Assembly: GCA_049583465.1 (NCBI GenBank)
Contig: JBAUVX010000405.1
Span: forward strand, 1 to 37,282
DNA length: 37,282 bases
Direction of reading: 5' to 3'
DNA from: Waddliaceae bacterium
Lineage (GTDB): Bacteria; Chlamydiota; Chlamydiia; Chlamydiales; Waddliaceae
Within the stretch, counting starts at the first letter, position 1, and every line of letters begins with the position of its first letter. The notes under the pieces are model-generated. The model ran no database searches. It had not been told where the DNA came from and worked only from the letters and a program-made list of their open reading frames with translations. Shown piece after piece: positions 29,601 through 37,282 of this stretch. The position numbers were made by a program, and so were the translations under genes.

Positions 29601-32600
29601 GCGCATTTAGAACATCCACAATTATTCGGACAAGTGATTGCTGTAAGCGAAAAAATTTCGGCGACGGAATTGATGTCGAGATTAAAGGAAAACAAGAAAC
29701 AGCCTCAAGATGATCAGATCTACTACGAAGAAGACCGACGGTTAGTCTCCGTCTTGAAAGAAATGCACTCCGCTGAATTAGAAAAAACGATTCCCTGGCG
29801 TGATCATGGGGTGTATTTGATCACAGGCGGCGCCGGAGGATTGGGGTTGATTTTTGCTGAAGAGATCACGCGTAAGTGTACAAGCACAACATTAATTCTC
29901 ACCGGTCGTTCGACGTTGAGCACCGAAAAGAAGGACAAACTGAAAGAACTGCAAAGATCAGGAGCAGAAGTTCAATACAAAAAGGTAGACATTACTGATA
30001 AGGAGGCGGTTGCAGCACTTATTCGGGAGATTGAACACGACTTTGGCAAGGTCAATGGAATGATTCATAGCGCCGGGGTGATTAACGATGACTATATTGT
30101 GAACAAGCAGACAGAGGAGTTTCGAGCAGTGCTCGCCCCCAAAGTGTTAGGAACGATCAACCTTGATCAAGCAACGAAGACATTGAAGGAATTGGACTTT
30201 TTTATTGTATTTTCTTCAAGTGCAGGTTGTCTAGGCAGTGCAGGACAGGCTGATTATGCCACAGCTAATGCATTTATGGACGCTTTTGCCCACTATCGCA
30301 ATACCTTGCTGGGTAGCAAACGGACTGGCCGCACTTATTCAATCAATTGGCCGCTGTGGAAAGAAGGCGGCATGGATGTCGATCAGACAACAAAAAAGAT
30401 GATGAAAGAACACTTAGGCTTAGTGGCTATGGAGACAGCTGCAGGGATGGAGGCCTTTTATCAAGCCTTATCTGCACAAGTGCCTCAGGTGATGATTATG
30501 AGAGGTTTGCTTAAGCGCATGCAAAGCAAGCTGTTTCCTAAACAACTCTCGAAGGCACGTTCAACACAGACGGACTCAGGCATTGATACAGGCCATTTAC
30601 TTGATAAGATTCAGCAGGCTTTGATGAAAGTGATTTCTCAATCATTGAAACTAAGAATTGAAGAGCTAGACATTGATGCTGAGTTCAGCGAATACGGGTT
30701 TGATTCGATCACGTTGACGGATTTTGCTAACAGATTGAATCAACACTATCAACTAGAGCTAACCCCTACGATCTTTTTTGAGTATCCCACTATTGGTCGT
30801 TTCGCAAAATATTTGAATGAGGACCATCAGAGCGTGTTTGCTATTCAAACGCCACAGCAAAAAGAAGCGACTGAAATTTTGGAGGATCAGACTAGTGTTG
30901 CCAGGCCGAGACGTCGTTGTCGATTTGCAACCACAGCGATTTCTTTTGCGCCAGACTCTAAAACTACCGAACCGATTGCTATTGTGGGGGTGAGCGGCTG
31001 TTTTCCTGAGGCTGGCGATATTCATGAATTTTGGGAAAATCTTAAGGAAGGGAAACATTGCATACAAGAAATACCCCAACAGCGCTGGAATTGGCGAGCG
31101 ATGTATGGCGATCCTCGGCAAGAGAGCAACAAAACCAATATCAAGTGGGGTGGTTTTATCGAAGGCATTGACACATTTGACCCCCAATTTTTTGGGATAT
31201 CCCCTCGTGAAGCACAATTGATGGATCCTCAGCAGAGACTGCTGATGACCTATATTTGGTTGGTATTGGAGGATGCCGGCTATTCAGCATCGAGCCTGTC
31301 GGACAGCAATACGGGGATTTTTATTGGTACCGGCAGTAGCGGCTACACCAATCTCATCACCAACGCTAAACTGCCTGTTGAAGGGTATAGTTCGATAGGG
31401 GTGGTCCCCTCGATCGGTCCCAATAGGATGAGTTATTTTTTAAATATTCATGGTCCAAGTGAGCCTATTGAAACAGCGTGTTCATCATCTTTAATAGCAA
31501 TCCATAAGGCCCTTATTTCGATGGAAGCGGGTGAGTGCGATCAGGCGATTGTCGGGGGGATCAATACGATCCTCAGTCCAGATGTTCATATCAGTTTCAA
31601 TAAAGCGGGCATGCTTTGTCAAGATGGTCGCTGTAAAACATTTTCTAAGCAAGCGAATGGTTATGTTCGAGGTGAAGGGGTGGGCATGCTCATGTTAAAG
31701 CCCCTTGAGATAGCCGAACGGGAAAAAGATCATATTTACGGATTAGTTAGAAGCAGTGCGGAAAATCATGGAGGGCGGGCAAATTCTTTAACAGCGCCAA
31801 ATCCCAAAGCCCAAACGGATCTATTAATCCGTGCTTATCGTAAAGCAGGAATTCATCCCGGGACAGTCAGTTATATCGAAGCCCATGGAACAGGAACAGA
31901 ATTGGGAGATCCCATAGAAGTCAACAGTTTGAAAGCCGCGTTTAAAGAATTGGCTCAAGAGATGGGAAGTGGGCAAATTCAAGAAAGTTATTGTGGGCTA
32001 GGATCAGTAAAGACAAATATTGGCCATTTAGAACTAGCGGCAGGCGTTGCGGGTGTGATTAAGGTTCTTCTCCAACTTCAGCATAAAAGACTAGTGAAAA
32101 GTCTTCATTGTGATGAAATCAATCCTTATATCGAATTAAAAGGGAGCCCGTTCTACGTCGTTCAAGAATCACAAGAGTGGCGAGCTTTGCAAGATTCCAG
32201 CGGAAAACTCCTTCCTCGCCGAGCTGGGGTCAGTTCCTTTGGATTTGGAGGAGTCAATGCCCATGTTGTTCTTGAGGAATACATACCAAAGGATGGGCAA
32301 CAATCAATAGAAGACATTGTCGATCTTCCGTCAAGTCGTGTCATTGTCCCTCTTTCAGCCAAGAACAGGGAACGATTGCAAGACTATGCAAAGAGTCTTG
32401 CAACATGGATACAAAATGACAAAGAGCGTCAAATCAATCTTGTCGATCTTGCTTATACACTCCAGGTAGGGCGTGAGCCAATGGAAGTCCGATTAGGGAT
32501 GATTGTCCACTCAATAAAGCAACTAGAAAAAAAGTTGCAGGCATTCATTACCGAGGCCGAAGAGATAGAAGACCTCTATATTGGGCAAGTCCAGCGAAAT

Positions 32601-35600
32601 AAAGAGACGTCGTTGGCAGTTTTTGGTGCCGATGAAGATTTACAAAACGCCATGCAAGCCTGGGCAAGTAAAGGAAAGTACAATAAACTGCTCGATCTTT
32701 GGGTCAAAGGTCTGGCTTTTGATTGGAATCAATTGTATGGGGCAAACAAGCCAAAGCGCATCAGCGCACCGACCTATCCCTTTGCCAAAGAGCGCTATTG
32801 GATAGAAGCTCAGGATTTGTCGGCTAACAAGAGTATCCAACCAAGCAAGAAAAATCCTTTAACTTCTCTTGAAGAGTACGTTGCAGACGATCAAGGGCGT
32901 GTTTCGAGATCATTGTCTAAACCATTGGGAATAACATTAGCTGCTTTGTCGGAAGAACAAAATTTTTCTGTACGAGGAAATCAGATGCAACAAGCTGTAG
33001 ACATTTCCTTGCCGGCAGACAAGCAAATGTCTTCTACTGCAAGTCATCATGATCCTGGAGAGTCTTCTCTCTTGAAAGAAACCCTGCTAACAGAACTGGT
33101 CATAAGCTTAGCGAACATTTTATACATGAAGCCAAGCGAGATCGACATGAATAAATCGTTTGTTGAGATAGGCTTGGATTCCATTGTGGGAGTAGAATGG
33201 GTACAAGAAATCAATAAGAAGTATTCGCTCAATATCGTTGCGACGAAAGTTTATGATTATGTGACTCTTCAAGAGTTTGCCAAATTTTTAAAAAAAGAAT
33301 TGGATAAGAAAGGAACGGTACCAACTCAAGAGCCATCAAAGCCGCGGCCTTCAGTATCGGTAGAGCAACCACAGAGTACAAAGTCGGAGCCACAAAACGT
33401 GTTGAGTTCCGGGGACAATTACGGCCTTGTTCTTTCTACAGTTAGTTCTTTTGAAAACATCTCTTTAAAAAAATGGGAAATTCCTCCTCCCTCCTGTGGT
33501 GAGGTAACCGTTAAAGTAGAAGCCTCTGCCGTTAATTTTCCTGATACATTGTGTGTAAAAGGATTATACCCCACCATGCCGGACTATCCCTTTGTTCCTG
33601 GTTTTGAAGTGTCGGGAACAATTTCTCGTCTTGGTGATCAGGTCTCGGAGATAAGTTTGGGAGATGAAGTGATTGCGTTCACAGGCGGGCAAATGGGCGG
33701 ACATGCTCGTTATGTCAATGTTCCTGTAGAAAACTTAATGCGCAAGCCTCAATGTGTTTCGTTTGAAGAGGCCTGTAGTTTACCTGTTGTTTTTGGGACC
33801 GTGTATTACGCATTTGAAAAAGGGAAATTATCTCCCGGAGAACACGTGTTAATACAAACAGCTACCGGAGGCTGTGGACTCATGGCTCTTCAATTGGCAC
33901 GATTAAAGAGTTGCGTGTGCTATGGCACATCGAGTCGTCCAGAAAAATTAGCGATACTGAAGGAGCTAGATGTCCCTTATGTGCTGAATTATCAAGAAGA
34001 TTTTGATCGAAAAATTAAAGAGATCACTAATGATCGAGGAGTAGATGTTGTATTAAATACGTTGTCAGGCGATGGCATCCAAAAGGGGTTAAACAGTTTA
34101 GCAGCGTCGGGGCGGTATGTGGAAATTGCTGTACACGCACTAAAAACGAGTCCCAAATTAGACCTTTCTCAGTTAGTCCACAACCAGTCTATTTACAGCA
34201 TTGATTTACGCCGATTACGAGCGCAAAAAGGTGGCAATAAAAATAGCGAAGCTTTTCACACCATGATTTCTTGGCTTGAGTCCGGGATCGTGGTCCCGGT
34301 TGTTTCGAGAATTTACCCAGTTCACCAAATCGTCGATGCTTTGACGTATGTCTCTCAAGGAAAACATATTGGCAAAGTGGTGATTAGTCATACATGTCAA
34401 CACATGGTGGATTGTATGGATCATTGCTTAAACCGGATGTTAGAGCAAAAAAGAAAGGCTGAATCACGGGAATGTTCGAGAGAAAGCAGCCCCTCCATTG
34501 CGATAAACAAAGCGGGAAAAGAGATGACCGAAGCGATTGCAATTATTGGAATGTCCGGTCGATTCCCCAAAGCTCCACATGTCGATAGGTTCTGGGAGAA
34601 TATCTCACAAGGGAAAGATTGCATTTCGGAAATTCCCACAACCCGTTGGCCAATCGATCAATATTATGATTCAAATAAACATGTGCCCGGAAAGACCTAT
34701 TGTAAATGGATGGGGATGTTGGATGATATCGATCAGTTTGACCCCTTGTTTTTTAATATTTCCCCCGCAGAAGCTCAGTGGATAGATCCTCAACAGCGTT
34801 TGTTTTTAGAAAATGCCTGGCATTGCGTAGAAGATGCAGGACTCAATCCAAGTTCTTTATCGGGCAGCTCTTGTGGAGTGTTTGTTGGCTGTGGCGGCAG
34901 CATCTATGGAAGCACAATGCATGAGAAAGAGCTGAGTGTACAGAGTTTAATGGGAGGAAGTTCTTCCATTTTATCGGCTAGAATAGCCTATGTACTCAAT
35001 TTGAAAGGCCCTTGTCTAGCGATTGATACAGCATGTTCTTCTTCTCTAGTCGCCATCGCGGAAGCCTGCAACAGTTTGGTGCTTAAGACAAGTGATCTGG
35101 CACTAGCAGGAGGAGTGTGCGTCTTGTCAGGGCCTGCGCTGCATATCATGACAAGTCATGCAGGGATGTTGTCTGAAGATGGGCGCTGCTTTGCCTTTGA
35201 TGCAAGAGCCAATGGTTTTGTTCCTGGAGAAGGTGTTGGCGTTGTTTTACTCAAGCGGCTTTCAGATGCTATCCGTGATCGCGATCAAATTTATGGAGTC
35301 ATCAAGGGGTGGGGGATCAAGCAGGATGGAAAAACAAACGGAATGACAGCACCAAGCGTGAATTCACAGATTTCGTTGGAAAAAGAGATTTACAATCGTT
35401 TTGGTATTAACCCTGAAACGATTTCCTTGGTTGAAGCTCATGGGACAGGAACAAAACTTGGAGATCCTATCGAAGTCGAGGCGCTAATCGAGTCTTTTAG
35501 ATCCTATACAGATAAGCAGCGATATTGTGCTTTAGGTTCGGTCAAAAGTAATATAGGTCATCTTCAATCTGCATCGGGAATTGCGGGAGTGATCAAAGTC

Positions 35601-37282
35601 TTACTCGCATTACAGAAAAAAATGCTTCCACCCACCATACATTTTGAGAAGCTTAATCAACATATCTCTCTAGAAGATAGTCCATTTTATATCAATACCG
35701 AGTTGCAGCCGTGGGAAACATCTTCAGGAATTTTACGATGTGCAAGTGTGAGTTCGTTTGGTTTTAGTGGGACGAATGCTCATTTAGTGATTGAGGAATA
35801 TCGTCCCCAAAATACTCAATCAGGCCGAAAAACAACTGTTATCGACCTCCCTACCTCAGTGATTATCCTCCTTTCAGCGAAGAACAAAGAACGTTTGCAA
35901 GAGTATGCGAAAAGCCTTGTGACATTTATTCAAAACAATAAAGACAATCAAATCAATCTGGCTGATCTTGCTTACACACTACAGGTAGGTCGCGAAGCAA
36001 TGGAAATCCGTCTAGGAATGGTTGTGCGTTCAATGGAGGAGCTAGAAGAAAAGTTGCAGGCCTTTGCCGAGGGGAAAGAAGAGGCCGAGGATTTATATCT
36101 TGGCCAAGTCAAGGGAAATCAAGAGACAATAGAAGCCTTTACTGCTGATATAGATTTGCAAAAAGCAATGGAAGCCTGGATTGTCAAAGGGAAGTACAAC
36201 AAACTTCTCAATCTTTGGGTCAAAGGTCTGGTTTTTGATTGGAATAAACTCTATGGTCCAAATAAGCCAAAGCGCATCAGCGTACCAACCTATCCCTTTG
36301 CCAAAGAGCGCTACGGGCTTAAGACTCAGGTTTTGCCGATAAACTTACCGATTAACCCCCCTTCTGCGCTTAGTACCGAGGAACCTTCTGAAGTGATGTA
36401 TTTCGAAGAGGTGTGGCAAGAACAAGAGCTTCACTTAAATCACCAAACAGTCAGCACTGAACAAAACGTTAAGACGATTCTTTGTTTCCTCTCAAATATA
36501 GAAAAGCAACAGGCCTTTACTGAAACAACCAAAGCCCTTGATCCTCAAGCGCGAGTGATCTTTATTGCTGAACAATCAGGTGACCGGACACAAAATTACC
36601 GCGTTGTACGAGGAGAACAAAATAGTTATCGACAAGTTTTACAAAACATTAAGAAAGAATATGACCACATTGACGGGGTTTTTTATTTATGGCCACTGGA
36701 AGACCACTGTTGGATTCGAGATCTCTCTCCCATCACCATGCTTCTGCAAGCACTATCGATGACCCAACTGCGATCTCGACGGATTTTATTGGCAGCAGAG
36801 TTTCACGATGACGTAGAGCGTTGTTACCTAGAATCATGGGTAGGCTTTGAACGTTCTCTAGGACTGGTGATGCCTAACACTCAGCTTGCAGTGATTTTCC
36901 AAAAACAGACCCAAGAAACGACCTCTGGCAATATCCTTGATTGGACAAGCAAACTTTGGAAAGAGTTCACACAAAAACAAACACAAAGCGTTTGCTATCA
37001 TCAAGGCAAACGACATGTATTGCAGATCCATCCAAGAGTTCTTAAATGGGATGAGCAGTTTCTAAAAGATGCTTTGCGAGGAACGATTTTAATCACCGGA
37101 GGCTTTGGAGGACTGGGTTTTCTTTTTGCCGACTATTTCGCTAGAAACACACAAACGAAGAGAATCATTTTAACCGGTCGCTCTGCTCTAACCCCTCAGA
37201 AACAGTCCAGACTGAAACAGCTTGAAGAATTAGGTTGCTCGGTTTTTTACTTACAAGCCGATGTGTCCGATCTAGAAGCCAT
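11604..37282 (+). CDS. Giant modular type I polyketide synthase subunit, trans-AT type; 3' end outside the window; not listed in the ORF track
   Basis: ATG 11604-11606 directly follows an in-phase TAA at 11598-11600 and overlaps the gene 1 stop by 26 nt. GTG 11655 and ATG 11658 are alternative starts. The phase (positions = 0 mod 3) reads as PKS to the last base (MLEQQKHTEDKDRLCSEVMCFEEVW ... LQADVSDLEA). None of the 22 plus-strand track ORFs after 11629 is in this phase. Domain order: KR-ACP-KS-DH-KR-ACP-KS-KR*-cMT-ACP-KS-KR-ACP-KS-DH-KR-ACP-KS-ACP-ER-KS-KR(partial). Confidence 0.9.
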   Translation, partial: MLEQQKHTEDKDRLCSEVMCFEEVWEEQERPLTSPKTHEQAHTILCFLSNLDNQQACEEALHAIDPRTQIIFIAEQSDNRRENYRVVREDRESYQSALQQIRHDHEHIDGVFYLWPLEDPCWIRDPSPIAMLLQALSITQLQPRRILLAGEFTGDLERCYLESWIGFERSLELVMPNTQLAVIFQKNTQETACGNIPDWTEKLWREFTHNQTQSICYQHNKRHALQIHPREPNLDEQYLNNLMLGTILITGGCGGLGFLFAEYFAKNMHTKAIILTGRSPLTSQKKSMIKELEKLECSVYYLQADVCDQEAMKNGLNRIKKHVGPIAGVIHSAGINEFKTIIEKDFKEFQEVLDPKVKGTLILDEVLSEEPLHFICYFSSSSAILGDFGACDYAVGNRFEMAYAHYRNALLAQGKRFGKAIVINWPFWKEGGMQFGGSEQADFYLKSSGQQHLTTSSGVEVFKKILCQQQTQHLVLVGQPSRVHRFLGLTTAPLGVDSPIVPASPTPTQGERRPEMRGLSVAQCLEWDLKDHISRLLKIPCEALDRETHLAEYGLDSISLIEFARILSHHYGFEVTPALFFGYSTLEKLIHYFLDTHAKNITEFYQGTQGKSVVNAPSSTLDKPKKARFKRSRFFAQPQHSTLESIAIIGMSGRFPQARSIEEMWEILSAGKDAVEEIPEDRFDWRQYDGEVRYKWSGFIPGIEEFDPLFFEISPREAEEMDPRQRHLIQESWKALEDAGYGVEQIKQHKIGMFVGVEEGGYGFQGEGNITANHNGILAARIAYFLDLHGPTMAINTACSSGLVAVHQAILSLRSGECSTAIAAGVNLMLSPAPYVAMNQAGMLSSDGKCFAFDHRANGMVPGEAVAVVILKKLSDAKSDKDPIHAIIRGSGINYDGKTNGITAPSGVSQTALLTSVYHTHQINPEEIDYVVAHGTGTKLGDPVEINALNDAFEAYTQKQNYCALTSTKSNFGHTFAASGVVSLISLVEALKRESIPGSLHCENENAYIRWEQSPFYVNKSTKAWPKSEANKRMGAVSSFGMSGTNAHMVVESYSCHEKERGEAFPSYLLPISAKTAEALQEKIQHMLKALQHIKGGKEGLTAMGYTLQMGRHHFSHRCAIVVEDLEDAVYVYNKIDAGERSANVFQGKVKRDFNGQKVIEQSITELLIKCRTLEENPTAYRDILCALADFYCQGYGIAWDLLYGEEKPHRIPAPTYPFAKEHYWIKSREAKLSCLVQSNRRSQLNPLLQENTSTLSEQRYTSTLTGEEFFLNDHRIKGKKVLPGAAYLEMAYEGVKHSCGLSDGQSVQLKNIVWAQPIVVEGSPVDVAMGLSPEENGEISYEIFTERANKSGDSVVHSQGVAVCKTSAETPTLNLANLKKKLNQQRLDPEACYTTFTKVGLDYGPAHKALEEVYAGDSEVLAKLTLPASIKETKEQFTLHPSLLDGAFQASVGLGMSGSKELQPLVPFALESLEVFNGCEETMWAWVRFAEGGPTAGKVHRLSIDLCDDAGKVCIQIRGFSARELVGEISEESEKVGTLIVKPIWQEKPLDDRQQLFHYRERRVYLCGFKQAGKELQDKAGFSLELGTEHKDLAEQFSAAAVQLFEDIQRILKEKHQGQTLLQVVVPSQGPKQVFAALSGLLKSAHVEHPQLFGQVIVVSETISATELMSKLEENKKQPQDDHIYYEGGRRLVSFLEEIHSVDVEKTIPWRDHGVYLITGGAGGLGQIFAEEIARKCTSTTVILTGRSALSNNKQEKLQELKRSGADVQYKTIDVTDKQAVAALIRKIQHDFGKLNGIIHSAGVINDHFILKKGAEEFQTVLAPKVLGTINLDQATKTLKDLDFFILFSSSAGSLGNAGQADYATANAFMDAFAHYRNTLLGSKRTGTTSSINWPLWKAGGMDVDQATKKMMKERLGLVAMETAAGIEAFYQGLSAQVPQVMVLTGLLKRMRHKLLSFSKNTSKTQVASTLAKTVSGVDAGHLLDRIQQALIQVISKLLKLRVEDLEVDAEFSEYGFDSITLTDFANRLNERYQLELTPTVFFEHPTIGRFAKYLSEAHQSTFAVQKPAQMETIQIAEVEISEERLRLRRRCRFAHTRSSSASFDSDILDPIAVVGMSGCFPEACDIHEFWKNLSEGKHCIQTIPKERWDWRAFYGDPQQENNKTNVKWGGFIEGVDAFDSLFFGISPREAQLMDPQQRLLMTYIWLALEDACYPASTLSGSNTGIFVGTASSGYTGLITNAKLPIEGYSSTGIVPSVGPNRMSYFLNVHGPSEPIETACSSSLVAIHRALVAMRTGECDQAIVGGVNTIIGPEAHISFSKAGMLCQDGRCKTFSKQANGYVRGEGVGMLFLKSLEAAERDGDHIYGLIRASAENHGGRANSLTAPNPKAQRDLLIRAYQQAGIHPETVSYIEAHGTGTELGDPIEINSLKAAFKDLTEEMGSSQVQEVRCGLGSVKTNIGHLELAAGVAGVIKVLLQLKHKRLVKSLHCDEINPYIALKESPFYVVQESQEWRPLQDANGKPLPLRAGVSAFGFGGVNAHVVLEEYIPKDGRESKEKGVALPSSPLIILLSAKSRECLQDYTKNLLTWIQNDKDHQINLVNLAYTFQVGREAMEMRLGMIVHSMEELEQKLQVFIKGEEVAEGLYVGQVKRNKDALDVFTADEDLQQALEAWASKGKYSKLLGLWVKGLIFDWGKLYGANKPRRISAPTYPFAKERHWVEDGLGNTTKAGLKEAQKTSAELVPMSPVWEAVVLEKMELLSEKDKQMLIIGGTQCQVRALKELYPQANNLAIKTNADIDAIATQLYTQDFNHLIWVSSHFPLRSLDSKDLIQEQEKGVLHLFRILKALLSLGYGEKELAWTLITTATQSVCKDDRVNPTHASIHGFIGSLAKEYPQWKIRLLDMQEDEEWPVRDMFRLPYDRKGNALAYRAGEWFVQKLLPVRECLSQNRLYKTGGVYVVIGGAGGLGEAWTQWMIENYQAQIIWIGRREKQAIQGKLTSMAAIGSKPIYIQADARYQESLQKAYQQIKQQHAHIHGVIHSALDLFDYALANVDEKRFQSILSVNIDLSVSIARVFMHEPLDFFLFFSSMAAFTKSGGFSGYSSGCTFKDAFACQLSQACSYPVKVMNWGYWNIGSGSRISEQIKIRQKQSDIKAIEPAEGMTILEKFLNGPLKQMALVKTSKPTAMEGEWVIIYPGTIPSMMNKDISYLIDEPDPNTLAKGLEIQEMESLLYKLLWSCLQSLGLFQKQCFKFSDLRHQEVFIEFYDPWMKEVFSVFCHKGYLKFDGEKYTVENSDKVDLNIAWDEWDRRKKAKQWNEDSDKRAQIVLVEACLRALPEILTGKRQATDVMFPHSSMNLVEGVYQGNRVSDAFNKILAQVLATCIQERLAQDASSQIRILEVGAGTGGATAAILPTLQPFKQQIVEYCYTDLSKSFLFHAEEQYLPQHPFLCTKIFDVEKSLSEQNISADTYDFVIANNVLHATKNIRQTLRNVKAALHKNGLILLNEICNKSLFAHLTFGLLKGWWLQEDDALRIPGSPGLYPQAWEKVLKEEGFDPVLFPAEKVHGLGQQIVVAESNGIVRQKRSGQADHEMPAKALPQSKSQKIQSDSRQYEPINEILKEKSINYFKKLLGKILRIDSNKIDSLESLESYGIDSILIVQINNSLREIFGNISSSLLFEVQTLHALVEYFINNKKEELIKLFGLEYQKVSDHQVSVKETSGMSVDDGNAEANSQPFRESIAIIGISGRYPQAKDLTTYWENLKSGKDCIVEIPEERWSLEGFFHSPIEEAIAQGKSYSKWGSFLEGFDEFDPLFFNISPREAMSMDPQERLFLQSCWAVLEDAGYTRERLSTQKNNSVGVFAGITKTDFGLHGPKLWQQGAHLYPQTSFSSVANRVSYCLDLQGPSMPIDTMCSSSLTAIHVACEYLHQRECEMAIAGGVNIYLHPSGYINLCVQHMLSVDGRCRSFGKGANGFVPGEGVGVVLLKRLSQAIQDQDHIYAVIRGTSVNHGGKTNGYTVPNPKAQEALIQAALEKAGVDARTVSYIEAHGTGTALGDPIEITGLSQAFNKVTEDRGFCALGSVKSNLGHLEAASGIAGLTKILLQMKHKTLVPSLHAEELNPHIDFANTPFFVNRDLHKWKRPVLKINGEEKEYPRIAGISSFGAGGSNAHILIEEYCSEVRQASGKGILFRGPVIIVLSAKDVERLKEYAKSLVTFVQNDKNRQINLVDLAYTLQVGREAMKVRLGMIVHSMEELKDKLQAFIDGKEDVGDVYLGTIKQNKESLFRLQADEDLQTAVQAWMNKRKYSKLVDLWVKGFAFDWDKLYVANKPQRISAPTYPFSRERYWVKRENLPSSLQIKEPSPSIAEKSSEVMCFEEVWQEEELPSTLRTDKHVHTILCFLSNVDKQQVFVEAIKAMNPQTQVLFITEKSEDQRQHYTVVRGERKSYQRALQNIQQDHGHVDGIFYLWPLENPCWIQDLSPITMLLQALSITQLQPQRILLAGEFTDDLERCYLESWIGFERSLGLVMPNTQLGVIFQKNTQKTTCGNISDWTKKLWKEFSHKKTKSVCYQQGKRHALKIFPRVAKLDKQFLNYLLEGTILITGGCGGLGFLFADYFARNTQTKRIILTGRSALTSQKQSRMKQLEKLGCSVFYLQADVCDLEGMKEGLKKAKEHVGPISGVIHAAGINESKTIIEKDFKEFQEVLDPKVKGTLVLDEVLHDEPLEFICYFSSSSAILGDFGACDYAVGNRFEMAYAHYRSALKAQGKRFGKAVVINWPYWKEGGMQFGESEQADFYLKSSGQQHLTTAEGIDIFEKILCQEQTQHLVLVGQPGRVHRFLGLTDEPLRLDSPKVPALPASTKGERRPELRGLSVEQCLEWELKEHVSRLLKIPRESVDTGDNLADFGFDSISLAEFAHILRDHYGFEVTPALFFGYSTLEKLISYFLKEHGKNLAEFYQTAQEKQALNLPSSPIQQSEPVQAKSVQFAARRSDSSNLEPIAIIGMSGRFPQAQSIEEMWEILSAGRDAIEEIPEGRLDWSQYNREVRYKWSGFIPGIEEFDPRFFEISPQEAEEMDPRQRHLIQESWKALEDAGYGVNQIKQHNIGMFVGVEEGGYGFPGEGNITAGHNGILAARIAYFLDLHGPTMAINTACSSGLVAAHQAILSLRSGECSTAIVAGVNLMLSPAPYVAMNQAGMLSSDGKCFAFDQRANGMVPGEAVAVVILKKLSDAESDKDPIHAVIRGSGVNYDGKTNGITAPSGVSQAALLKSVYQTYHINPEEIDYIVTHGTGTKLGDPVEINALNDAFKEYTQKQNYCALTSIKSHFGHTFAASGLVSLISLVEALKRKSIPGSLHCENENDYIHWEQSPFYVNKSTKAWPKHGTNKRVGAVSAFGMSGTNAHMVVESYSCHEKERREAFPYYLLPISAKTQEALQEKIQDILKALQSIQGEKEGLTAMCYTLQIGRHHFSHRCAIVVEDLEEAVYLYNQVKAGERPANVFQGKVKRNFKGQKVIEQSITDLLIKSRTIQEDPATYREILCALADFYCQGYDIAWDLLYGEEKPCRIPAPTYPFAKEHYWKKSRDATADGLVQSSRRSRWHPLLQENISTLSEQCYGSTFTGEEFFLNDHRIKGKQVLPGAAYLEMAYEGVKRSCGLPDGQNVLLKNIVWTQPIVVEDSPVDVTMELFSEENGEISYEIFTERANESGDSVGHSQGVAVCKANGETPILNLADLKKKLNHRSLDLEGCYATFKEMGLDYGPAHKALVEVYTGDHEVLAKLTLPASIKETQEQFTLHPSLLDGAFQASVGLGISGSQQVKPLLPFALESLEVFDRCKETMWAWVRFAEGSTTAGNIHRLSIDLCDDAGKLCIQMKGFSAREPVEEPEAVDTLMVTPIWQEKPLDDRQQLPQYREHRIYLCGFKQTREELQEKAPHVFSLEPDPEQKGLEEQFSSYAVQLFEDIQRILQEKPQGQTLLQVVVPSQGPKQVFAGISGLLKTAHLEHPQLFGQVIAVSEKISATELMSRLKENKKQPQDDQIYYEEDRRLVSVLKEMHSAELEKTIPWRDHGVYLITGGAGGLGLIFAEEITRKCTSTTLILTGRSTLSTEKKDKLKELQRSGAEVQYKKVDITDKEAVAALIREIEHDFGKVNGMIHSAGVINDDYIVNKQTEEFRAVLAPKVLGTINLDQATKTLKELDFFIVFSSSAGCLGSAGQADYATANAFMDAFAHYRNTLLGSKRTGRTYSINWPLWKEGGMDVDQTTKKMMKEHLGLVAMETAAGMEAFYQALSAQVPQVMIMRGLLKRMQSKLFPKQLSKARSTQTDSGIDTGHLLDKIQQALMKVISQSLKLRIEELDIDAEFSEYGFDSITLTDFANRLNQHYQLELTPTIFFEYPTIGRFAKYLNEDHQSVFAIQTPQQKEATEILEDQTSVARPRRRCRFATTAISFAPDSKTTEPIAIVGVSGCFPEAGDIHEFWENLKEGKHCIQEIPQQRWNWRAMYGDPRQESNKTNIKWGGFIEGIDTFDPQFFGISPREAQLMDPQQRLLMTYIWLVLEDAGYSASSLSDSNTGIFIGTGSSGYTNLITNAKLPVEGYSSIGVVPSIGPNRMSYFLNIHGPSEPIETACSSSLIAIHKALISMEAGECDQAIVGGINTILSPDVHISFNKAGMLCQDGRCKTFSKQANGYVRGEGVGMLMLKPLEIAEREKDHIYGLVRSSAENHGGRANSLTAPNPKAQTDLLIRAYRKAGIHPGTVSYIEAHGTGTELGDPIEVNSLKAAFKELAQEMGSGQIQESYCGLGSVKTNIGHLELAAGVAGVIKVLLQLQHKRLVKSLHCDEINPYIELKGSPFYVVQESQEWRALQDSSGKLLPRRAGVSSFGFGGVNAHVVLEEYIPKDGQQSIEDIVDLPSSRVIVPLSAKNRERLQDYAKSLATWIQNDKERQINLVDLAYTLQVGREPMEVRLGMIVHSIKQLEKKLQAFITEAEEIEDLYIGQVQRNKETSLAVFGADEDLQNAMQAWASKGKYNKLLDLWVKGLAFDWNQLYGANKPKRISAPTYPFAKERYWIEAQDLSANKSIQPSKKNPLTSLEEYVADDQGRVSRSLSKPLGITLAALSEEQNFSVRGNQMQQAVDISLPADKQMSSTASHHDPGESSLLKETLLTELVISLANILYMKPSEIDMNKSFVEIGLDSIVGVEWVQEINKKYSLNIVATKVYDYVTLQEFAKFLKKELDKKGTVPTQEPSKPRPSVSVEQPQSTKSEPQNVLSSGDNYGLVLSTVSSFENISLKKWEIPPPSCGEVTVKVEASAVNFPDTLCVKGLYPTMPDYPFVPGFEVSGTISRLGDQVSEISLGDEVIAFTGGQMGGHARYVNVPVENLMRKPQCVSFEEACSLPVVFGTVYYAFEKGKLSPGEHVLIQTATGGCGLMALQLARLKSCVCYGTSSRPEKLAILKELDVPYVLNYQEDFDRKIKEITNDRGVDVVLNTLSGDGIQKGLNSLAASGRYVEIAVHALKTSPKLDLSQLVHNQSIYSIDLRRLRAQKGGNKNSEAFHTMISWLESGIVVPVVSRIYPVHQIVDALTYVSQGKHIGKVVISHTCQHMVDCMDHCLNRMLEQKRKAESRECSRESSPSIAINKAGKEMTEAIAIIGMSGRFPKAPHVDRFWENISQGKDCISEIPTTRWPIDQYYDSNKHVPGKTYCKWMGMLDDIDQFDPLFFNISPAEAQWIDPQQRLFLENAWHCVEDAGLNPSSLSGSSCGVFVGCGGSIYGSTMHEKELSVQSLMGGSSSILSARIAYVLNLKGPCLAIDTACSSSLVAIAEACNSLVLKTSDLALAGGVCVLSGPALHIMTSHAGMLSEDGRCFAFDARANGFVPGEGVGVVLLKRLSDAIRDRDQIYGVIKGWGIKQDGKTNGMTAPSVNSQISLEKEIYNRFGINPETISLVEAHGTGTKLGDPIEVEALIESFRSYTDKQRYCALGSVKSNIGHLQSASGIAGVIKVLLALQKKMLPPTIHFEKLNQHISLEDSPFYINTELQPWETSSGILRCASVSSFGFSGTNAHLVIEEYRPQNTQSGRKTTVIDLPTSVIILLSAKNKERLQEYAKSLVTFIQNNKDNQINLADLAYTLQVGREAMEIRLGMVVRSMEELEEKLQAFAEGKEEAEDLYLGQVKGNQETIEAFTADIDLQKAMEAWIVKGKYNKLLNLWVKGLVFDWNKLYGPNKPKRISVPTYPFAKERYGLKTQVLPINLPINPPSALSTEEPSEVMYFEEVWQEQELHLNHQTVSTEQNVKTILCFLSNIEKQQAFTETTKALDPQARVIFIAEQSGDRTQNYRVVRGEQNSYRQVLQNIKKEYDHIDGVFYLWPLEDHCWIRDLSPITMLLQALSMTQLRSRRILLAAEFHDDVERCYLESWVGFERSLGLVMPNTQLAVIFQKQTQETTSGNILDWTSKLWKEFTQKQTQSVCYHQGKRHVLQIHPRVLKWDEQFLKDALRGTILITGGFGGLGFLFADYFARNTQTKRIILTGRSALTPQKQSRLKQLEELGCSVFYLQADVSDLEA
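11652..13070 (+). other. KR3: ketoreductase (structural + catalytic), N-terminal domain of gene 2
   Basis: Junction motif SEVMCFEEVW 11649-11678. Rossmann motif GTILITGGCGGLG 12336-12374. DPKVKG Lys and FSSSSA Ser present. Tyr 12780-12782 (CDYAVGN). In HSAGINEF, Phe 12615-12617 sits at His+7, so there is no Asp (A-type fingerprint). Confidence 0.85.
13158..13392 (+). other. ACP3: acyl carrier protein domain
   Basis: LAEYGLDSISLIEFARIL. Ser codon 13272-13274. Confidence 0.85.
13533..15278 (+). other. KS3 + flanking subdomain: ketosynthase, elongation-competent, distinct clade
   Basis: ESIAIIGMSGRFPQ. Cys 13998-14000 (NTACSSG). AHGTGTKLGDPVE and SNFGHTFAASG present. Core ends ~14765. The flank is distinct (GYTLQMGRHHFSHRCAIVV...) and ends PTYPFAKEHYW (Trp 15276-15278). 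Confidence 0.9.
15336..16175 (+). other. DH4: dehydratase domain, catalytic motifs intact
   Basis: Starts LNPLLQ. DHRIKGKKVLPG (His 15426-15428). GLDYGPAH and VPFALESL present. LLDGAFQ (Asp 15939-15941). Confidence 0.85.
16221..17460 (+). other. KR4: ketoreductase, catalytic residues intact
   Basis: Rossmann motif GVYLITGGAGGLGQ 16746-16787. APKVLG Lys present. Tyr 17193-17195 (GQADYATANAF). In HSAGVIND, Asp 17025-17027 sits at His+7 (B-type fingerprint). Confidence 0.85.
17553..17785 (+). other. ACP4: acyl carrier protein domain
   Basis: EFSEYGFDSITLTDFANRL. Ser codon 17661-17663. Close paralogue of ACP1 and ACP7. Confidence 0.85.
17934..19763 (+). other. KS4 + flanking subdomain: ketosynthase, elongation-competent
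   Basis: DPIAVVGMSGCFPE. Cys 18444-18446 (ETACSSS). EAHGTGTELGDPIE and TNIGHLELAAG present. Core ends ~19247. Flank ends PTYPFAKERHW (Trp 19761-19763). Confidence 0.9.
19839..21015 (+). other. KR5*: KR-fold domain, paralogue of KR1, with the predicted catalytic Lys replaced by Asn (possibly inactive)
   Basis: Starts MSPVWEAV (cf. MSPVWNAV of KR1). Rossmann motif GGVYVVIGGAGGLG 20469-20510. FFSSM Ser and Tyr 20910-20912 (FSGYSSGCTF) are kept. The Lys of KR1 (LKAKVDV) is Asn here (LSVNIDL, codon 20799-20801). Confidence 0.7.
21285..22355 (+). other. cMT2: SAM-dependent C-methyltransferase domain
   Basis: SAM motif I ILEVGAGTGG 21798-21827. NNVLHATKNIRQTLRNVK and LILLNEI present. Paralogue of cMT1. 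Confidence 0.85.
22452..22685 (+). other. ACP5: acyl carrier protein domain (distinct sequence type, AT-rich coding)
   Basis: LESLESYGIDSILIVQINNSL. Ser codon 22572-22574. Confidence 0.8.
22821..24647 (+). other. KS5 + flanking subdomain: ketosynthase, elongation-competent
   Basis: ESIAIIGISGRYPQ. Cys 23346-23348 (DTMCSSS). EAHGTGTALGDPIE and SNLGHLEAASG present. Core ends ~24137. Flank ends PTYPFSRERYW (Trp 24645-24647). Confidence 0.9.
24720..26138 (+). other. KR6: ketoreductase, paralogue of KR3
   Basis: SEVMCFEEVW starts at 24717. Rossmann motif GTILITGGCGGLG 25401-25439. Tyr 25845-25847 (CDYAVGN). HAAGINES has no Asp at His+7 (A-type fingerprint). Confidence 0.85.
26226..26460 (+). other. 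ACP6: acyl carrier protein domain
   Basis: LADFGFDSISLAEFAHIL. Ser codon 26337-26339. Paralogue of ACP3. Confidence 0.85.
26601..28346 (+). other. KS6 + flanking subdomain: ketosynthase, elongation-competent, twin of KS3
   Basis: EPIAIIGMSGRFPQ. Cys 27066-27068 (NTACSSG). THGTGTKLGDPVE and SHFGHTFAASG present. Core ends ~27833. Flank ends PTYPFAKEHYW (Trp 28344-28346). All landmarks lie at +13,068 nt from KS3. Confidence 0.9.
28404..29245 (+). other. DH5: dehydratase domain, catalytic motifs intact, twin of DH4
   Basis: Starts WHPLLQ. DHRIKGKQVLPG (His 28494-28496). GLDYGPAH present. LLDGAFQ (Asp 29007-29009). Confidence 0.85.
29277..30520 (+). other. KR7: ketoreductase, twin of KR4
   Basis: Rossmann motif GVYLITGGAGGLG 29808-29846. 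Tyr 30255-30257 (GQADYATANAF). HSAGVIND has Asp at His+7. Confidence 0.85.
30597..30830 (+). other. ACP7: acyl carrier protein domain
   Basis: EFSEYGFDSITLTDFANRL. Ser codon 30705-30707. Confidence 0.85.
30969..32801 (+). other. KS7 + flanking subdomain: ketosynthase, elongation-competent, paralogue of KS1/KS4
   Basis: EPIAIVGVSGCFPE. Cys 31479-31481 (ETACSSS). EAHGTGTELGDPIE and TNIGHLELAAG present. Core ends ~32282. Flank ends PTYPFAKERYW (Trp 32799-32801). Confidence 0.9.
33066..33300 (+). other. ACP8: acyl carrier protein of a different sequence type, with Trp at Ser+6 (candidate beta-branching ACP)
   Basis: FVEIGLDSIVGVEWVQEINKKYSLNIVATKVYDYVTLQEF. Ser 33180-33182, Trp 33198-33200. The other seven ACPs have Phe, Leu or Ile at Ser+6. 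Confidence 0.8.
33417..34391 (+). other. ER: MDR-type enoylreductase domain, located after the ACP and before the next KS
   Basis: GEVTVKVEASAVNFPD and PFVPGFEVSG present. The nucleotide-binding site is LIQTATGGCGLMALQLA (TATGGCG 33858-33878). GVDVVLN, GRYVEIA and GKHIGKVVI present. Confidence 0.85.
34530..36317 (+). other. KS8 + flanking subdomain: ketosynthase, elongation-competent, cis-AT-like N-terminal signature
   Basis: EAIAIIGMSGRFPK, then TRWPIDQYYDSNKHVPGKTYCKWMG. Cys 35034-35036 (DTACSSS). EAHGTGTKLGDPIE and SNIGHLQSASG present. Core ends ~35801. Flank ends PTYPFAKERYG, with Gly 36315-36317 where every other flank has Trp. Confidence 0.9.
36390..37282 (+). other. KR8 (partial): ketoreductase, third copy of the KR3/KR6 type; runs off the window
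   Basis: SEVMYFEEVW starts at 36387. Rossmann motif GTILITGGFGGLG 37080-37118. The window ends at ...LQADVSDLEA. Confidence 0.8.
36390..37282 (+). repeat. Supermodule repeat, copy 3 (partial; continues beyond the window)
   Basis: It starts at the same junction motif (SEVMYFEEVW). By hand count, 37110-37282 differs from 25431-25603 at 11 of 173 positions. In this stretch it is closer to copy 2 than copy 1 is. Confidence 0.8.

What the first reader, a model, noticed from the sequence alone, without database searches (positions are those of the whole stretch)
32802..35801. KS-ACP-ER-KS block: ER placed after a Trp-flagged carrier protein, predicting a beta-branching plus reduction module
No KR or DH follows KS7. 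After an ~88-aa low-complexity linker comes a single ACP of a different sequence type (FVEIGLDSIVGVEWVQEINKKYSLNIVATKVYDYVTLQEF). An MDR-type ER (33417-34391) follows that ACP, and then KS8. In canonical modules the ER sits upstream of the ACP together with DH and KR. This module has an ER but no DH or KR to make an enoyl substrate. ACP8 is the only one of eight ACPs with Trp at Ser+6 (codon 33198-33200). As I recall it, a Trp shortly after the Ser is the published flag for ACPs served by HMG-CoA-synthase-type beta-branching cassettes (Haines et al. 2013, Nat Chem Biol). The best-known place where an ER directly precedes a KS is the ECH2-ER-KS arrangement of the curacin CurF / jamaicamide JamJ beta-branching region. 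My inference has three steps. KS7 leaves a beta-keto thioester on ACP8. A cassette encoded elsewhere (HMGS, ECH1, ECH2, donor ACP) installs a branch. The in-line ER then processes the branched enoyl before KS8. KS8 alone carries a cis-AT-like N-terminal signature (DQYYDSNKHVPGKTYCKWMG). The ACP-ER-KS block therefore looks like a graft from another PKS lineage inserted between repeat copies 2 and 3.
Basis: partly seen in the sequence, partly recalled or inferred. Interest (0 to 1): 0.7.

Follow-up and report, generated by a model that had tools for sequence, protein, structure and literature searches.

The report
Beta-branching plus reduction PKS module
This stretch of a giant trans-AT polyketide synthase gene encodes a module (KS, Trp-flagged carrier protein, enoylreductase, next KS) of a type already described in the pateamine pathway, predicted to add a side-chain methyl to the polyketide and reduce it; it is a correct but ordinary find.

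Summary
The window is two huge plus-strand trans-AT PKS genes with no AT domain. At 30975-36323 the order is KS7, flanking subdomain, ~90-aa linker, ACP8, MDR-type ER, KS8. ACP8 is the only one of eight ACPs with Trp at Ser+6.

The core interpretation (beta-branching, then enoyl reduction) is well supported:
- ACP8's three best solved relatives are the proven beta-branching ACPs of MmpA, PksL and CurA.
- In 78 genome loci the ER relatives split into two clades. The window's clade (47) follows a Trp-flag ACP in 32 of the 34 loci that have an upstream in-frame ACP, or starts a gene right after HMGS-ECH-ECH. The other clade (32) never does.
- The ER keeps its NADPH motif and conserved residues.
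- KS8 belongs to the KS group that always follows this ER.

Papers describe the same module in pateamine PamC (beta-branching ACPs plus ER, giving a saturated beta-methyl).

Three side claims fail or weaken:
- An ER after the ACP is normal in trans-AT PKSs.
- KS8 is not cis-AT-like. Its best solved relative is the PksL KS.
- The "graft" is an ordinary trans-AT exchange unit bounded by an LPTYPFx5W motif.

The HMGS cassette could not be sought because the source genome is in none of the collections. Verdict: new member of a known kind.

The parts
30975..32300 (+). KS7 core, the elongating ketosynthase of the branching module. It belongs to repeat copy 2.
   Evidence: Pfam ketoacyl-synt and Ketoacyl-synt_C. 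Cys (IETACSSS, 31467-31511), HGTGT and NIGH motifs are present. It ends at NAHVVLEE (32256-32300).
32301..32807 (+). KS7 flanking subdomain, ending in the LPTYPFx5W-type motif APTYPFAKERYW (32766-32807). This is the end of repeat copy 2.
   Evidence: Pfam RhiE-like_linker and CurL-like_PKS_C. The 8.1-kb repeat ends at 32808.
32808..33095 (+). Linker of about 90 aa with no recognisable domain.
   Evidence: No Pfam hit. Sequence shown.
33096..33350 (+). ACP8, a beta-branching (acceptor) type carrier protein. Ser is at 33180-33182 and the Trp flag at 33198-33200.
   Evidence: Pfam PP-binding. The best PDB hits are MmpA 2L22, PksL 5ENY and CurA 2LIU. It is the only ACP of eight with Trp at Ser+6.
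33417..34391 (+). MDR-type NADPH enoylreductase of the beta-branch-associated clade. GGxG lies at 33867-33878, the conserved Lys at 34143 and the conserved Asp at 34203.
   Evidence: Pfam ADH_N, ADH_zinc_N and ADH_zinc_N_2. PDB hits are CurK, JamJ and CurF ERs. Conserved columns are and clade membership.
34536..35801 (+). KS8 core, the ketosynthase that receives the branched, reduced chain. The Cys motif is at 35022-35066, HGTGT at 35433-35480, and the core ends at NAHLVIEEY (35775-35801).
   Evidence: It is the best window match for 42 of 42 KSs that follow clade-A ERs. Its best solved relative is the PksL KS.
35802..36323 (+). KS8 flanking subdomain, ending in VPTYPFAKERYG (36282-36323). It is 70-88% identical in protein to the flanking subdomains after KS4, KS5 and KS7. 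Repeat copy 3 starts here.
11648..19770 (+). Repeat copy 1 (KR-ACP-KS-DH-KR-ACP-KS-flanking subdomain).
   Evidence: blastn self-comparison gives 82% identity to 24716-32808 over 8143 nt.
24716..32808 (+). Repeat copy 2, which ends exactly where the ACP8-ER-KS8 block begins.

Best explanation
The block is one extension module of a trans-AT polyketide synthase, of the type that combines beta-branching with enoyl reduction. Only the sequence features are shown; every chemical step below is inferred.

1. KS7 has an intact Cys-His-His set. It condenses the incoming chain with malonyl-ACP8, which is loaded by a free-standing AT not encoded in the window.
2. The module has no KR or DH, so the beta-keto group persists on ACP8.
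3. ACP8 carries the Trp flag six residues after its serine and closely resembles proven acceptor ACPs. It therefore recruits a free-standing HMG-CoA-synthase cassette (donor ACP, decarboxylating KS, HMGS, ECH1, ECH2). The cassette turns the ketone into a beta-methyl (or other beta-alkyl) enoyl thioester.
4. The NADPH-dependent MDR enoylreductase fused just after ACP8 reduces that alpha,beta-unsaturated branched thioester to a saturated beta-alkyl unit.
5. KS8 belongs to the KS group that co-inherits with this ER, and it takes the product on.

In evolutionary terms, ACP8-ER-KS8 is a portable trans-AT exchange unit. It lies between two copies of an 8-kb duplicated module block and starts right after an LPTYPFx5W motif.
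For: **Domain order and missing domains.** KS-ACP-ER-KS with no KR, DH, ECH or AT in between.

**KS7 is catalytically complete:**

**ACP8 is an acceptor-type ACP.**
- Trp at Ser+6, unique among eight ACPs.
- ACP8 against the PDB: MmpA didomain 3.7e-24, PksL 6.9e-21, CurA 2.8e-17, then VirA ACP5; the remaining hits are at 2.5e-5 or worse.
- The control ACP7 scores about half as high on the same three and has a different chain (8ODW) as its top hit.

**The ER belongs to a branch-associated clade.**
- 78 genome loci carry relatives. A midpoint-rooted NJ tree splits them into 47 (with the window) and 32.
- By identity to the window ER, 32 of the 34 loci at 49% or more that have an upstream in-frame ACP carry Trp at Ser+6; the other two carry Phe or Tyr. 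Below 49%, none of 27 does (Fisher p 2.6e-15).
- In L008, L013, L014, L016 and L042 the ER-KS gene starts directly after HMGS-ECH-ECH genes. HMGS lies within 10 kb in 11 clade-A loci and in no clade-B locus.

**The ER looks active.** It keeps GGxG, Lys250, Asp270, Asn47 and Tyr58.

**KS8 fits the co-inherited KS group.** It is the best window match for 42 of 42 KSs downstream of clade-A ERs (median 66.5% identity against 45% for other KSs). Its best solved relative is the PksL KS that sits directly after the PksL ACP matched by ACP8.

**Published precedent.**
- Pateamine PamC module 7 has three beta-branching ACPs and an ER, read as giving a fully reduced beta-methyl (PMC7157528, PMC7196800).
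- In the Ca. Didemnitutus mandela locus L006 the ER is preceded by a Trp-flag ACP. The mandelalide paper assigns a beta-branching ACP and a beta-methyl to module 10 (PMC5698493).
- An ER placed after its ACP reduces the upstream ACP's enoyl thioester in gladiolin module 1 in vitro (PMC10921412).
Against: - No HMGS, ECH, donor ACP or AT gene lies in the 37-kb window.
- The source genome was not found in the genome, metagenome, viral or plasmid collections, so the cassette is unverified.
- The Trp flag is diagnostic but not sufficient proof of branching.
- ER-like domains of the same clade sit after the branching ACPs in the Ca. Endobugula sertula locus, which I take to be the bryostatin cluster. 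The bryostatin branches stay unsaturated (own knowledge), so membership of the clade does not guarantee reduction. Those two domains have lost the conserved Lys and Asp, which the window's ER keeps.
- The role of Lys250 and Asp270 in catalysis is inferred from conservation only. The canonical EIGK lysine of cis-AT ERs aligns to Val in this whole trans-AT ER family.
- The loci counted are related sequences, so the Fisher p-value overstates independence.
Confidence: 0.8

Rival explanations
1. The module branches but the ER is inactive or has another role, as seems to be the case for the ER-like domains in the Ca. Endobugula sertula locus. The product would then keep an unsaturated (endo or exo) beta-branch.
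For: ER-like domains of the same clade follow Trp-flag ACPs in Ca. Endobugula sertula (L032, L034). The bryostatin branches are not reduced (own knowledge).
Against: Those two domains have Lys to Leu, Asp to Asn and Asn to Ser changes at columns conserved in nearly all the others. The window's ER has the majority residue at every such column and an intact GGxG.
Confidence: 0.08
2. There is no branching. The ER is an ordinary in-line trans-AT ER that reduces an unbranched enoyl thioester made on ACP8 by KR and DH activities borrowed from neighbouring modules or supplied in trans, giving a plain methylene.
For: ERs placed after ACPs in trans-AT PKSs do reduce ordinary enoyl thioesters (gladiolin module 1, PMC10921412). 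A sister clade of 32 ERs follows non-Trp ACPs.
Against: The window's ER falls in the other clade. There, 32 of 34 upstream in-frame ACPs carry the Trp flag and HMGS genes are often adjacent. ACP8 itself is of the acceptor type. The module has no KR or DH.
Confidence: 0.07
3. KS7 is a non-elongating transfer KS. ACP8-ER would then be the second half of a split bimodule that finishes reduction of the unit made by KS6-DH-KR-ACP7.
For: Split bimodules with non-elongating KSs are common in trans-AT PKSs (own knowledge). The upstream module has DH and KR.
Against: KS7 has the full Cys-His-His set, like its repeat-copy twin KS4, which sits before an ordinary KR-MT-ACP module. This model does not explain the Trp flag or the ER clade.
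Confidence: 0.03
4. The block is a curacin/jamaicamide-type (cis-AT cyanobacterial) ER-KS graft, related to CurF/JamJ.
For: The gene order HMGS-ECH-ECH-(ER-KS) in several related loci parallels curD-curE-curF.
Against: No AT domain follows KS8 and no ECH2 is fused to the ER. The ER scores no higher against JamJ or CurF than against the canonical module ER CurK or eukaryotic VAT-1. KS8's best solved relative is trans-AT PksL (526 bits), with cis-AT CurL at 404 bits. The ER is 51-67% identical to trans-AT ERs from many phyla.
Confidence: 0.02

Closest known systems
Pateamine PKS PamC module 7 (Candidatus Patea custodiens, Mycale hentscheli symbiont)
   Same: A trans-AT module built from a KS, beta-branching ACP(s) with the recruitment signature and an enoylreductase, with no KR or DH. 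Both papers read it as installing a fully reduced beta-methyl, with the branching cassette encoded elsewhere (PMC7157528, PMC7196800).
   Different: PamC has three tandem branching ACPs and the window has one. The next module differs (an aminotransferase in PamC). Sequence identity to PamC could not be measured because no PamC sequence was available here.
Mandelalide PKS module 10 (Candidatus Didemnitutus mandela), locus L006
   Same: The ER is 61-63% identical to the window's and is preceded in frame by a single Trp-flag ACP (GLDSVIGVEW). The paper assigns a beta-branching ACP and a beta-methyl to this module (PMC5698493).
   Different: A different assembly line and product. The paper text that could be read does not discuss the ER of this module explicitly.
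Curacin CurA-CurF and jamaicamide JamE-JamJ beta-branching region
   Same: Trp-flag acceptor ACP (CurA ACP is the third-best solved match to ACP8), an HMGS cassette, then an MDR ER directly before a KS. Several relatives share the gene order HMGS-ECH-ECH-(ER-KS).
   Different: Cur and Jam are cis-AT PKSs with ECH2 fused in front of the ER and an AT after the KS. The window has neither. The ER is no closer to CurF/JamJ than to CurK or VAT-1. CurF ER makes a cyclopropane from a chlorinated substrate (own knowledge); nothing suggests that here.
Bacillaene PksL beta-branching ACP-KS (PDB 5ENY, 5ERF)
   Same: ACP8 and KS8 both have PksL among their best solved relatives (second for the ACP, first single KS for KS8). 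In 5ENY the matched PksL ACP is directly followed by the matched KS.
   Different: PksL has no ER between the ACP and the KS, and the bacillaene branch stays unsaturated (own knowledge).
Gladiolin PKS module 1 ACP-ER didomain
   Same: An in-line NADPH ER placed after its ACP in a trans-AT PKS, shown in vitro to reduce the enoyl thioester on the upstream ACP (PMC10921412).
   Different: That module reduces an ordinary enoyl unit, not a beta-branch. Its clade membership was not tested here.

Membership tests
HMGS-cassette acceptor ACP (beta-branching ACP) | Trp six residues after the phosphopantetheine Ser (Trp flag; Haines 2013 as quoted in PMC7618002) | tested here: met
   GLDSIVGVEW: Ser codon 33180-33182, tgg 33198-33200. 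It is unique among the eight ACPs.
HMGS-cassette acceptor ACP (beta-branching ACP) | Overall sequence groups with experimentally proven acceptor ACPs rather than ordinary ACPs | tested here: met
   The top three PDB hits are MmpA (87 bits), PksL (77) and CurA (65.5). The control ACP7 scores 43, 31 and 32 bits on the same chains and has a different chain as its top hit.
HMGS-cassette acceptor ACP (beta-branching ACP) | A beta-keto intermediate is available (no KR or DH in the module, elongating KS upstream) | tested here: met
   Pfam domain order. KS7 has Cys-His-His.
HMGS-cassette acceptor ACP (beta-branching ACP) | HMGS, ECH1, ECH2, donor ACP and decarboxylating KS encoded in the same genome | not testable with these tools
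   None lies in the window. The source genome is absent from genome, metagenome, viral and plasmid collections.
trans-AT beta-branching plus ER module (PamC module 7 type) | trans-AT architecture: no in-line AT, KS followed by a flanking subdomain | tested here: met
   No Acyl_transf_1 hit anywhere in 12.4 k aa. RhiE-like linker follows each KS.
trans-AT beta-branching plus ER module (PamC module 7 type) | An MDR ER directly follows the branching ACP(s) and precedes the next KS | tested here: met
   ACP8 33096-33350, ER 33417-34391, KS8 from 34536.
trans-AT beta-branching plus ER module (PamC module 7 type) | The ER belongs to the lineage that co-occurs with Trp-flag ACPs and HMGS cassettes | tested here: met
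   The NJ tree gives a clade of 47 that includes the window: 33 Trp, 10 at gene starts, 4 Phe/Tyr. The sister clade of 32 has no Trp. HMGS lies within 10 kb in 11 clade-A loci and in no clade-B locus.
trans-AT beta-branching plus ER module (PamC module 7 type) | The ER has a nucleotide-binding motif and the residues conserved in the family | tested here: met
   TATGGCG (33858-33878), Lys250, Asp270, Asn47 and Tyr58 all match the majority residue. A catalytic role for Lys and Asp is inferred, not shown.
trans-AT beta-branching plus ER module (PamC module 7 type) | The product carries a saturated beta-alkyl branch at this position | not testable with these tools
   The organism and product are unknown.
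CurF/JamJ ECH2-ER-KS-AT (cis-AT) arrangement | ECH2 domain fused upstream of the ER and AT domain after the KS | tested here: not met
   No ECH or AT in the window.
CurF/JamJ ECH2-ER-KS-AT (cis-AT) arrangement | The ER is specifically related to the CurF/JamJ ERs | tested here: not met
   CurK 143.9, JamJ 139.8, VAT-1 137.3 and CurF 129.1 bits. Trans-AT relatives are 51-67% identical.
Canonical fully reducing module (KS-DH-ER-KR-ACP) | DH and KR in the same module, with the ER upstream of the ACP | tested here: not met
   no DH or KR between KS7 and KS8, and the ER is downstream of the ACP.

The most novel reading that the evidence does not exclude
The ER belongs to a distinct, phylum-spanning lineage of trans-AT enoylreductases dedicated to HMGS-derived beta-branches. 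This lineage travels as a three-part ACP(Trp)-ER-KS unit. Its presence, with Lys250 and Asp270 intact, would predict a saturated beta-alkyl branch, and its degenerate form (as in the Ca. Endobugula sertula locus) an unreduced one. On this reading the window captures a recent insertion of such a unit at an LPTYPFx5W boundary between tandem 8-kb module duplicates. Individual pathways with this module are published. I did not find the clade-level rule or the degenerate ER-like domains stated in the papers I could read.
Probability: 0.5. Interest if true: 0.4.

Novelty: new member of a known kind. Interest (0 to 1): 0.25.

Why it matters
**For this gene cluster.** The block allows a concrete structural prediction: a saturated beta-methyl (or other beta-alkyl) branch at the unit made by module 7. 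It also predicts that an HMGS cassette and trans-AT genes lie outside the window.

**More generally.** The comparison gives a simple sequence rule for trans-AT PKS annotation. An ER of this clade after a Trp-flag ACP points to branch reduction, and the sister clade after a non-Trp ACP points to ordinary enoyl reduction. The ACP-ER-KS trio also behaves as a natural exchange unit, which is useful for engineering.

None of this overturns current understanding. The module type is already described for pateamine.

Tried and rejected
- **Finding the source contig to look for the HMGS cassette.** None of these found it:
  - exact look-up of the 3865-aa ORF product, which failed because both giant ORFs are cut by the window ends;
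  - Genome-contig scan with an ER alignment (best hit 68%);
  - exact 41-mer in viral contigs (none);
  - Metagenome-contig scan with the 2697-aa repeat unit (one relative at 54%, L079);
  - plasmids by blastn (at most 70% over fragments).
- **Protein database search.** It returned only fragments under 1000 aa, so giant PKS proteins seem not to be retrievable there.
- **KS7 as a non-elongating KS.** Considered and rejected because the catalytic triad is intact.
- **The 800-bit PDB hit 7ZMA for KS8.** Considered as a sign of near identity and rejected. The score is the sum of two KS domains in one chain.
- **Papers not held.** Haines 2013, Buchholz 2010 and Slocum 2018 could not be read. The Trp-flag definition is therefore cited from PMC7618002, and bryostatin chemistry rests on my own knowledge.
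- **Structure prediction.** Not run. The tools return no coordinates, so it could not test active-site geometry.
Full report
**What the window is**

The 37,282-nt window holds two very long plus-strand reading frames and nothing else of size.
- Frame 2 runs from nt 2 to a TGA at 11627-11629.
- Frame 3 runs from an ATG at 11604 off the 3' end.
- Neither protein is complete. The first already begins inside a post-KS linker.

Pfam on overlapping chunks gives this domain order:
- Protein 1: (KS)-DH-KR-MT-ACP-KS1-DH-KR-ACP-KS2-DH
- Protein 2: KR-ACP-KS3-DH-KR-ACP-KS4-KR-MT-ACP-KS5-KR-ACP-KS6-DH-KR-ACP-KS7-ACP8-ER-KS8-...-KR

There is no acyltransferase domain anywhere, and each KS is followed by a RhiE-like flanking subdomain. 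This is a trans-AT polyketide synthase. GC content is an even 43-46% throughout.

**Checking the observation**

- The translated sequence matches the quoted peptides.
- Between KS7 (from 30975) and KS8 (from 34536) there is only the KS7 flanking subdomain, a domain-free stretch of about 90 aa, one PP-binding domain and one MDR-type reductase (ADH_N, ADH_zinc_N, ADH_zinc_N_2).
- Local tblastn with HMGS, ECH and AT seeds finds none of these in the window.
- Of the eight ACPs, only ACP8 has Trp at Ser+6. The codons are tcc at 33180-33182 and tgg at 33198-33200.

**Is ACP8 a branching ACP?**

- Against all PDB chains, the three best matches to ACP8 are the three classic acceptor ACPs: the mupirocin MmpA didomain (2L22, 3.7e-24), bacillaene PksL (5ENY, 6.9e-21) and curacin CurA (2LIU, 2.8e-17).
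- The virginiamycin branching ACP5 comes next. The remaining hits are at 2.5e-5 or worse.
- As a control, ACP7 scores roughly half as many bits on the same three chains, and its top hit is a different chain, 8ODW.

**What kind of ER is it?**

It is a PKS-type MDR reductase. The best solved relatives are CurK, JamJ, VAT-1 and CurF, all at 1e-36 to 1e-41 with no preference for the branch-processing CurF/JamJ.

A scan of 185,579 species genomes with an ER alignment found 475 relatives, and 78 loci were kept. I extracted the reading frame around each match, aligned the ERs and built a neighbour-joining tree. The tree, rooted at its midpoint, splits into two groups.
- **Group with the window (47 sequences).** The ACP directly upstream carries Trp at Ser+6 in 33, counting the window, often as a tandem pair. 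In 4, all from Bacteroidota, it carries Phe or Tyr. In 10 the ER starts a gene.
- **Other group (32 sequences).** The upstream ACP has Leu, Val or Ala and never Trp.
- Counting only loci with an in-frame ACP and splitting at 49% identity to the window ER, the figures are 32 of 34 against 0 of 27 (Fisher p 2.6e-15). The loci are related, so this overstates independence.

Clustering the small ORFs of all loci and scanning representatives with Pfam identified HMGS, ECH and AT genes.
- In five loci the ER-KS gene begins directly after HMGS-ECH-ECH (L008, L013, L014, L016, L042).
- HMGS lies within 10 kb in 11 loci of the window's clade and in none of the other clade.
- Where the ER starts a gene in Myxococcus and in Ca. 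Endobugula sertula (L034), the preceding PKS gene ends with a Trp-flag ACP.

The window's ER therefore belongs to a lineage tied to beta-branching.

**Is the ER likely to be active?**

It has the nucleotide-binding motif TATGGCG. It also has the majority residue at every strongly conserved column I examined: Asn47, Tyr58, Lys250 and Asp270.

The canonical EIGK lysine of cis-AT ERs aligns with Val or Met in this whole trans-AT family. A catalytic role for Lys250 and Asp270 is therefore an inference from conservation.

A natural contrast exists. The two ER-like domains in the Ca. Endobugula sertula locus follow a KS-MT-ACP(Trp) module. They carry Leu, Asn and Ser at three of these columns. Bryostatin's branches are unreduced vinyl methyl esters (my own knowledge; PMC12560621 notes the retained carboxylated branch).

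**KS7 and KS8**

All eight KSs have Cys-His-His, so KS7 should elongate and leave a beta-keto thioester on ACP8.

KS8 is not cis-AT-like.
- Its best single-KS match in the PDB is the PksL KS (526 bits), which sits directly after the PksL ACP that is ACP8's second-best solved match.
- Other trans-AT KSs score at or below 421 bits, and cis-AT CurL scores 404.
- Among 268 KSs in the related loci, all 42 that directly follow an ER of the window's clade match KS8 best of the eight window KSs. Their median identity is 66.5%, against 45% for other KSs.
- The DQYYD...GKTY.KWMG signature recurs in those KSs.

This is the known pattern of trans-AT KSs co-evolving with the upstream modifying domains (PMC11260071).

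**The "graft"**

A self-comparison shows an 8.1-kb direct repeat, 11648-19770 against 24716-32808, at 82% nucleotide identity. A third copy starts near 35871.
- The repeat ends fall within a few nucleotides of LPTYPFx5W-type motifs: 19728-19769 and 32766-32807, and likewise 24612-24653 and 36282-36323.
- KS7 and KS8 are 35-55% identical across the core. They are 70-88% identical in the flanking subdomain after NAHxxxEE.
- PMC11260071 identifies the C-terminal KS region as a common natural recombination site and the LPTYPFx5W motif as the boundary of trans-AT exchange units.

So ACP8-ER-KS8 does look like an inserted or retained unit between duplicated blocks. It is a standard trans-AT exchange unit, not an import from a different PKS lineage. 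Its GC content does not stand out.

**Precedent**

- Two independent papers on the pateamine pathway describe PamC module 7 as beta-branching ACPs plus an ER that gives a fully reduced beta-methyl. One of them calls it a rare feature (PMC7157528, PMC7196800).
- The mandelalide producer carries the same Trp-ACP-ER arrangement (L006), and the paper assigns a beta-methyl to that module (PMC5698493).
- An ER located after its ACP has been shown to act on that ACP's enoyl thioester in gladiolin module 1 (PMC10921412).

**What could not be done**

The source genome is not in any collection available. The closest relative found is a metagenome contig (L079) with an ER at 62% and a following KS at 78.6% identity.

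**Verdict**

The central interpretation is supported at about 0.8 confidence. The side claims (anomalous ER position, cis-AT-like KS8, CurF/JamJ kinship, foreign-lineage graft) are not supported or only partly supported. This is a new member of a known module type, and interest is low to moderate.

Noticed in passing
window 11648-19770, 24716-32808 and 35871-37282: An 8.1-kb block (KR-ACP-KS-DH-KR-ACP-KS-flanking subdomain) is duplicated at 82% nucleotide identity, and a third copy begins at the 3' end of the window. The copy ends coincide with LPTYPFx5W motifs. This suggests recent tandem duplication of multi-module exchange units within one assembly line.
   Followed up: partly
window 19341-19771, 24225-24654, 32340-32822, 35859-36338: The post-KS flanking subdomains of KS4, KS5, KS7 and KS8 are 75-77% identical in DNA (70-88% in protein), although the KS cores of KS5 and KS8 are only 35-55% identical to KS4 and KS7. 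Either breakpoints lie at the NAHxxxEE motif or the flanking subdomains have been homogenised by gene conversion.
   Followed up: partly
L032 10001-11023 and L034 10001-11023 (Candidatus Endobugula sertula contig MDLC01000001.1): Two PKS genes in what is presumably the bryostatin cluster (HMGS and tandem AT adjacent) each begin with a docking helix and an ER-like domain of the branch-associated clade. For L034 the preceding gene ends KS-MT-ACP(Trp). Both domains have Leu, Asn and Ser at the otherwise conserved Lys, Asp and Asn columns. They may be dead ERs, which would fit bryostatin's unreduced branches. I could not find this discussed in the papers available.
   Followed up: partly
L038, L041, L043, L045 (Sporocytophaga, Bacteroidia and Cyclobacteriaceae MAGs): In these Bacteroidota loci the ACP before an ER of the branch-associated clade has Phe or Tyr instead of Trp at Ser+6 (DSITAVEF, DSITGVEY). 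This may be a lineage-specific variant of the flag.
   Followed up: no
L046-L078, except L054, which is Trp-flagged and groups with the window's clade (e.g. Paenibacillus, Planktothrix, Sorangium): A sister clade of in-line ERs (40-48% identical to the window's) follows non-Trp ACPs of the type YGVDSIIAV.L.N. A C-methyltransferase precedes that ACP in fragment P0015. No HMGS lies within 10 kb. This is presumably the ordinary trans-AT enoyl-reducing module.
   Followed up: partly
window 11604-11629: The two giant genes overlap by 26 nt (ATG of the second at 11604, TGA of the first at 11627-11629). The protein break falls between the DH and KR of one module, a split module across two polypeptides.
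   Followed up: no
L079 (metagenome contig Ga0209045_1000027, 77033-105780): This is the closest relative found. It has an ER at 62% identity followed by a KS 78.6% identical to KS8, and a module series matching the window's 2697-aa repeat unit at 54%. It may be a homologous assembly line from a related organism. Only 28.7 kb of its 182 kb could be fetched.
   Followed up: partly
Homologous-protein output: All PKS hits were fragments under 1000 aa and the window's own proteins were not listed, so very long proteins appear not to be retrievable from that index. After about 22 PKS-embedded ERs, the next best hits were free-standing quinone-oxidoreductase/VAT-1-like proteins (about 34% identity) rather than cis-AT PKS ERs.
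   Followed up: no
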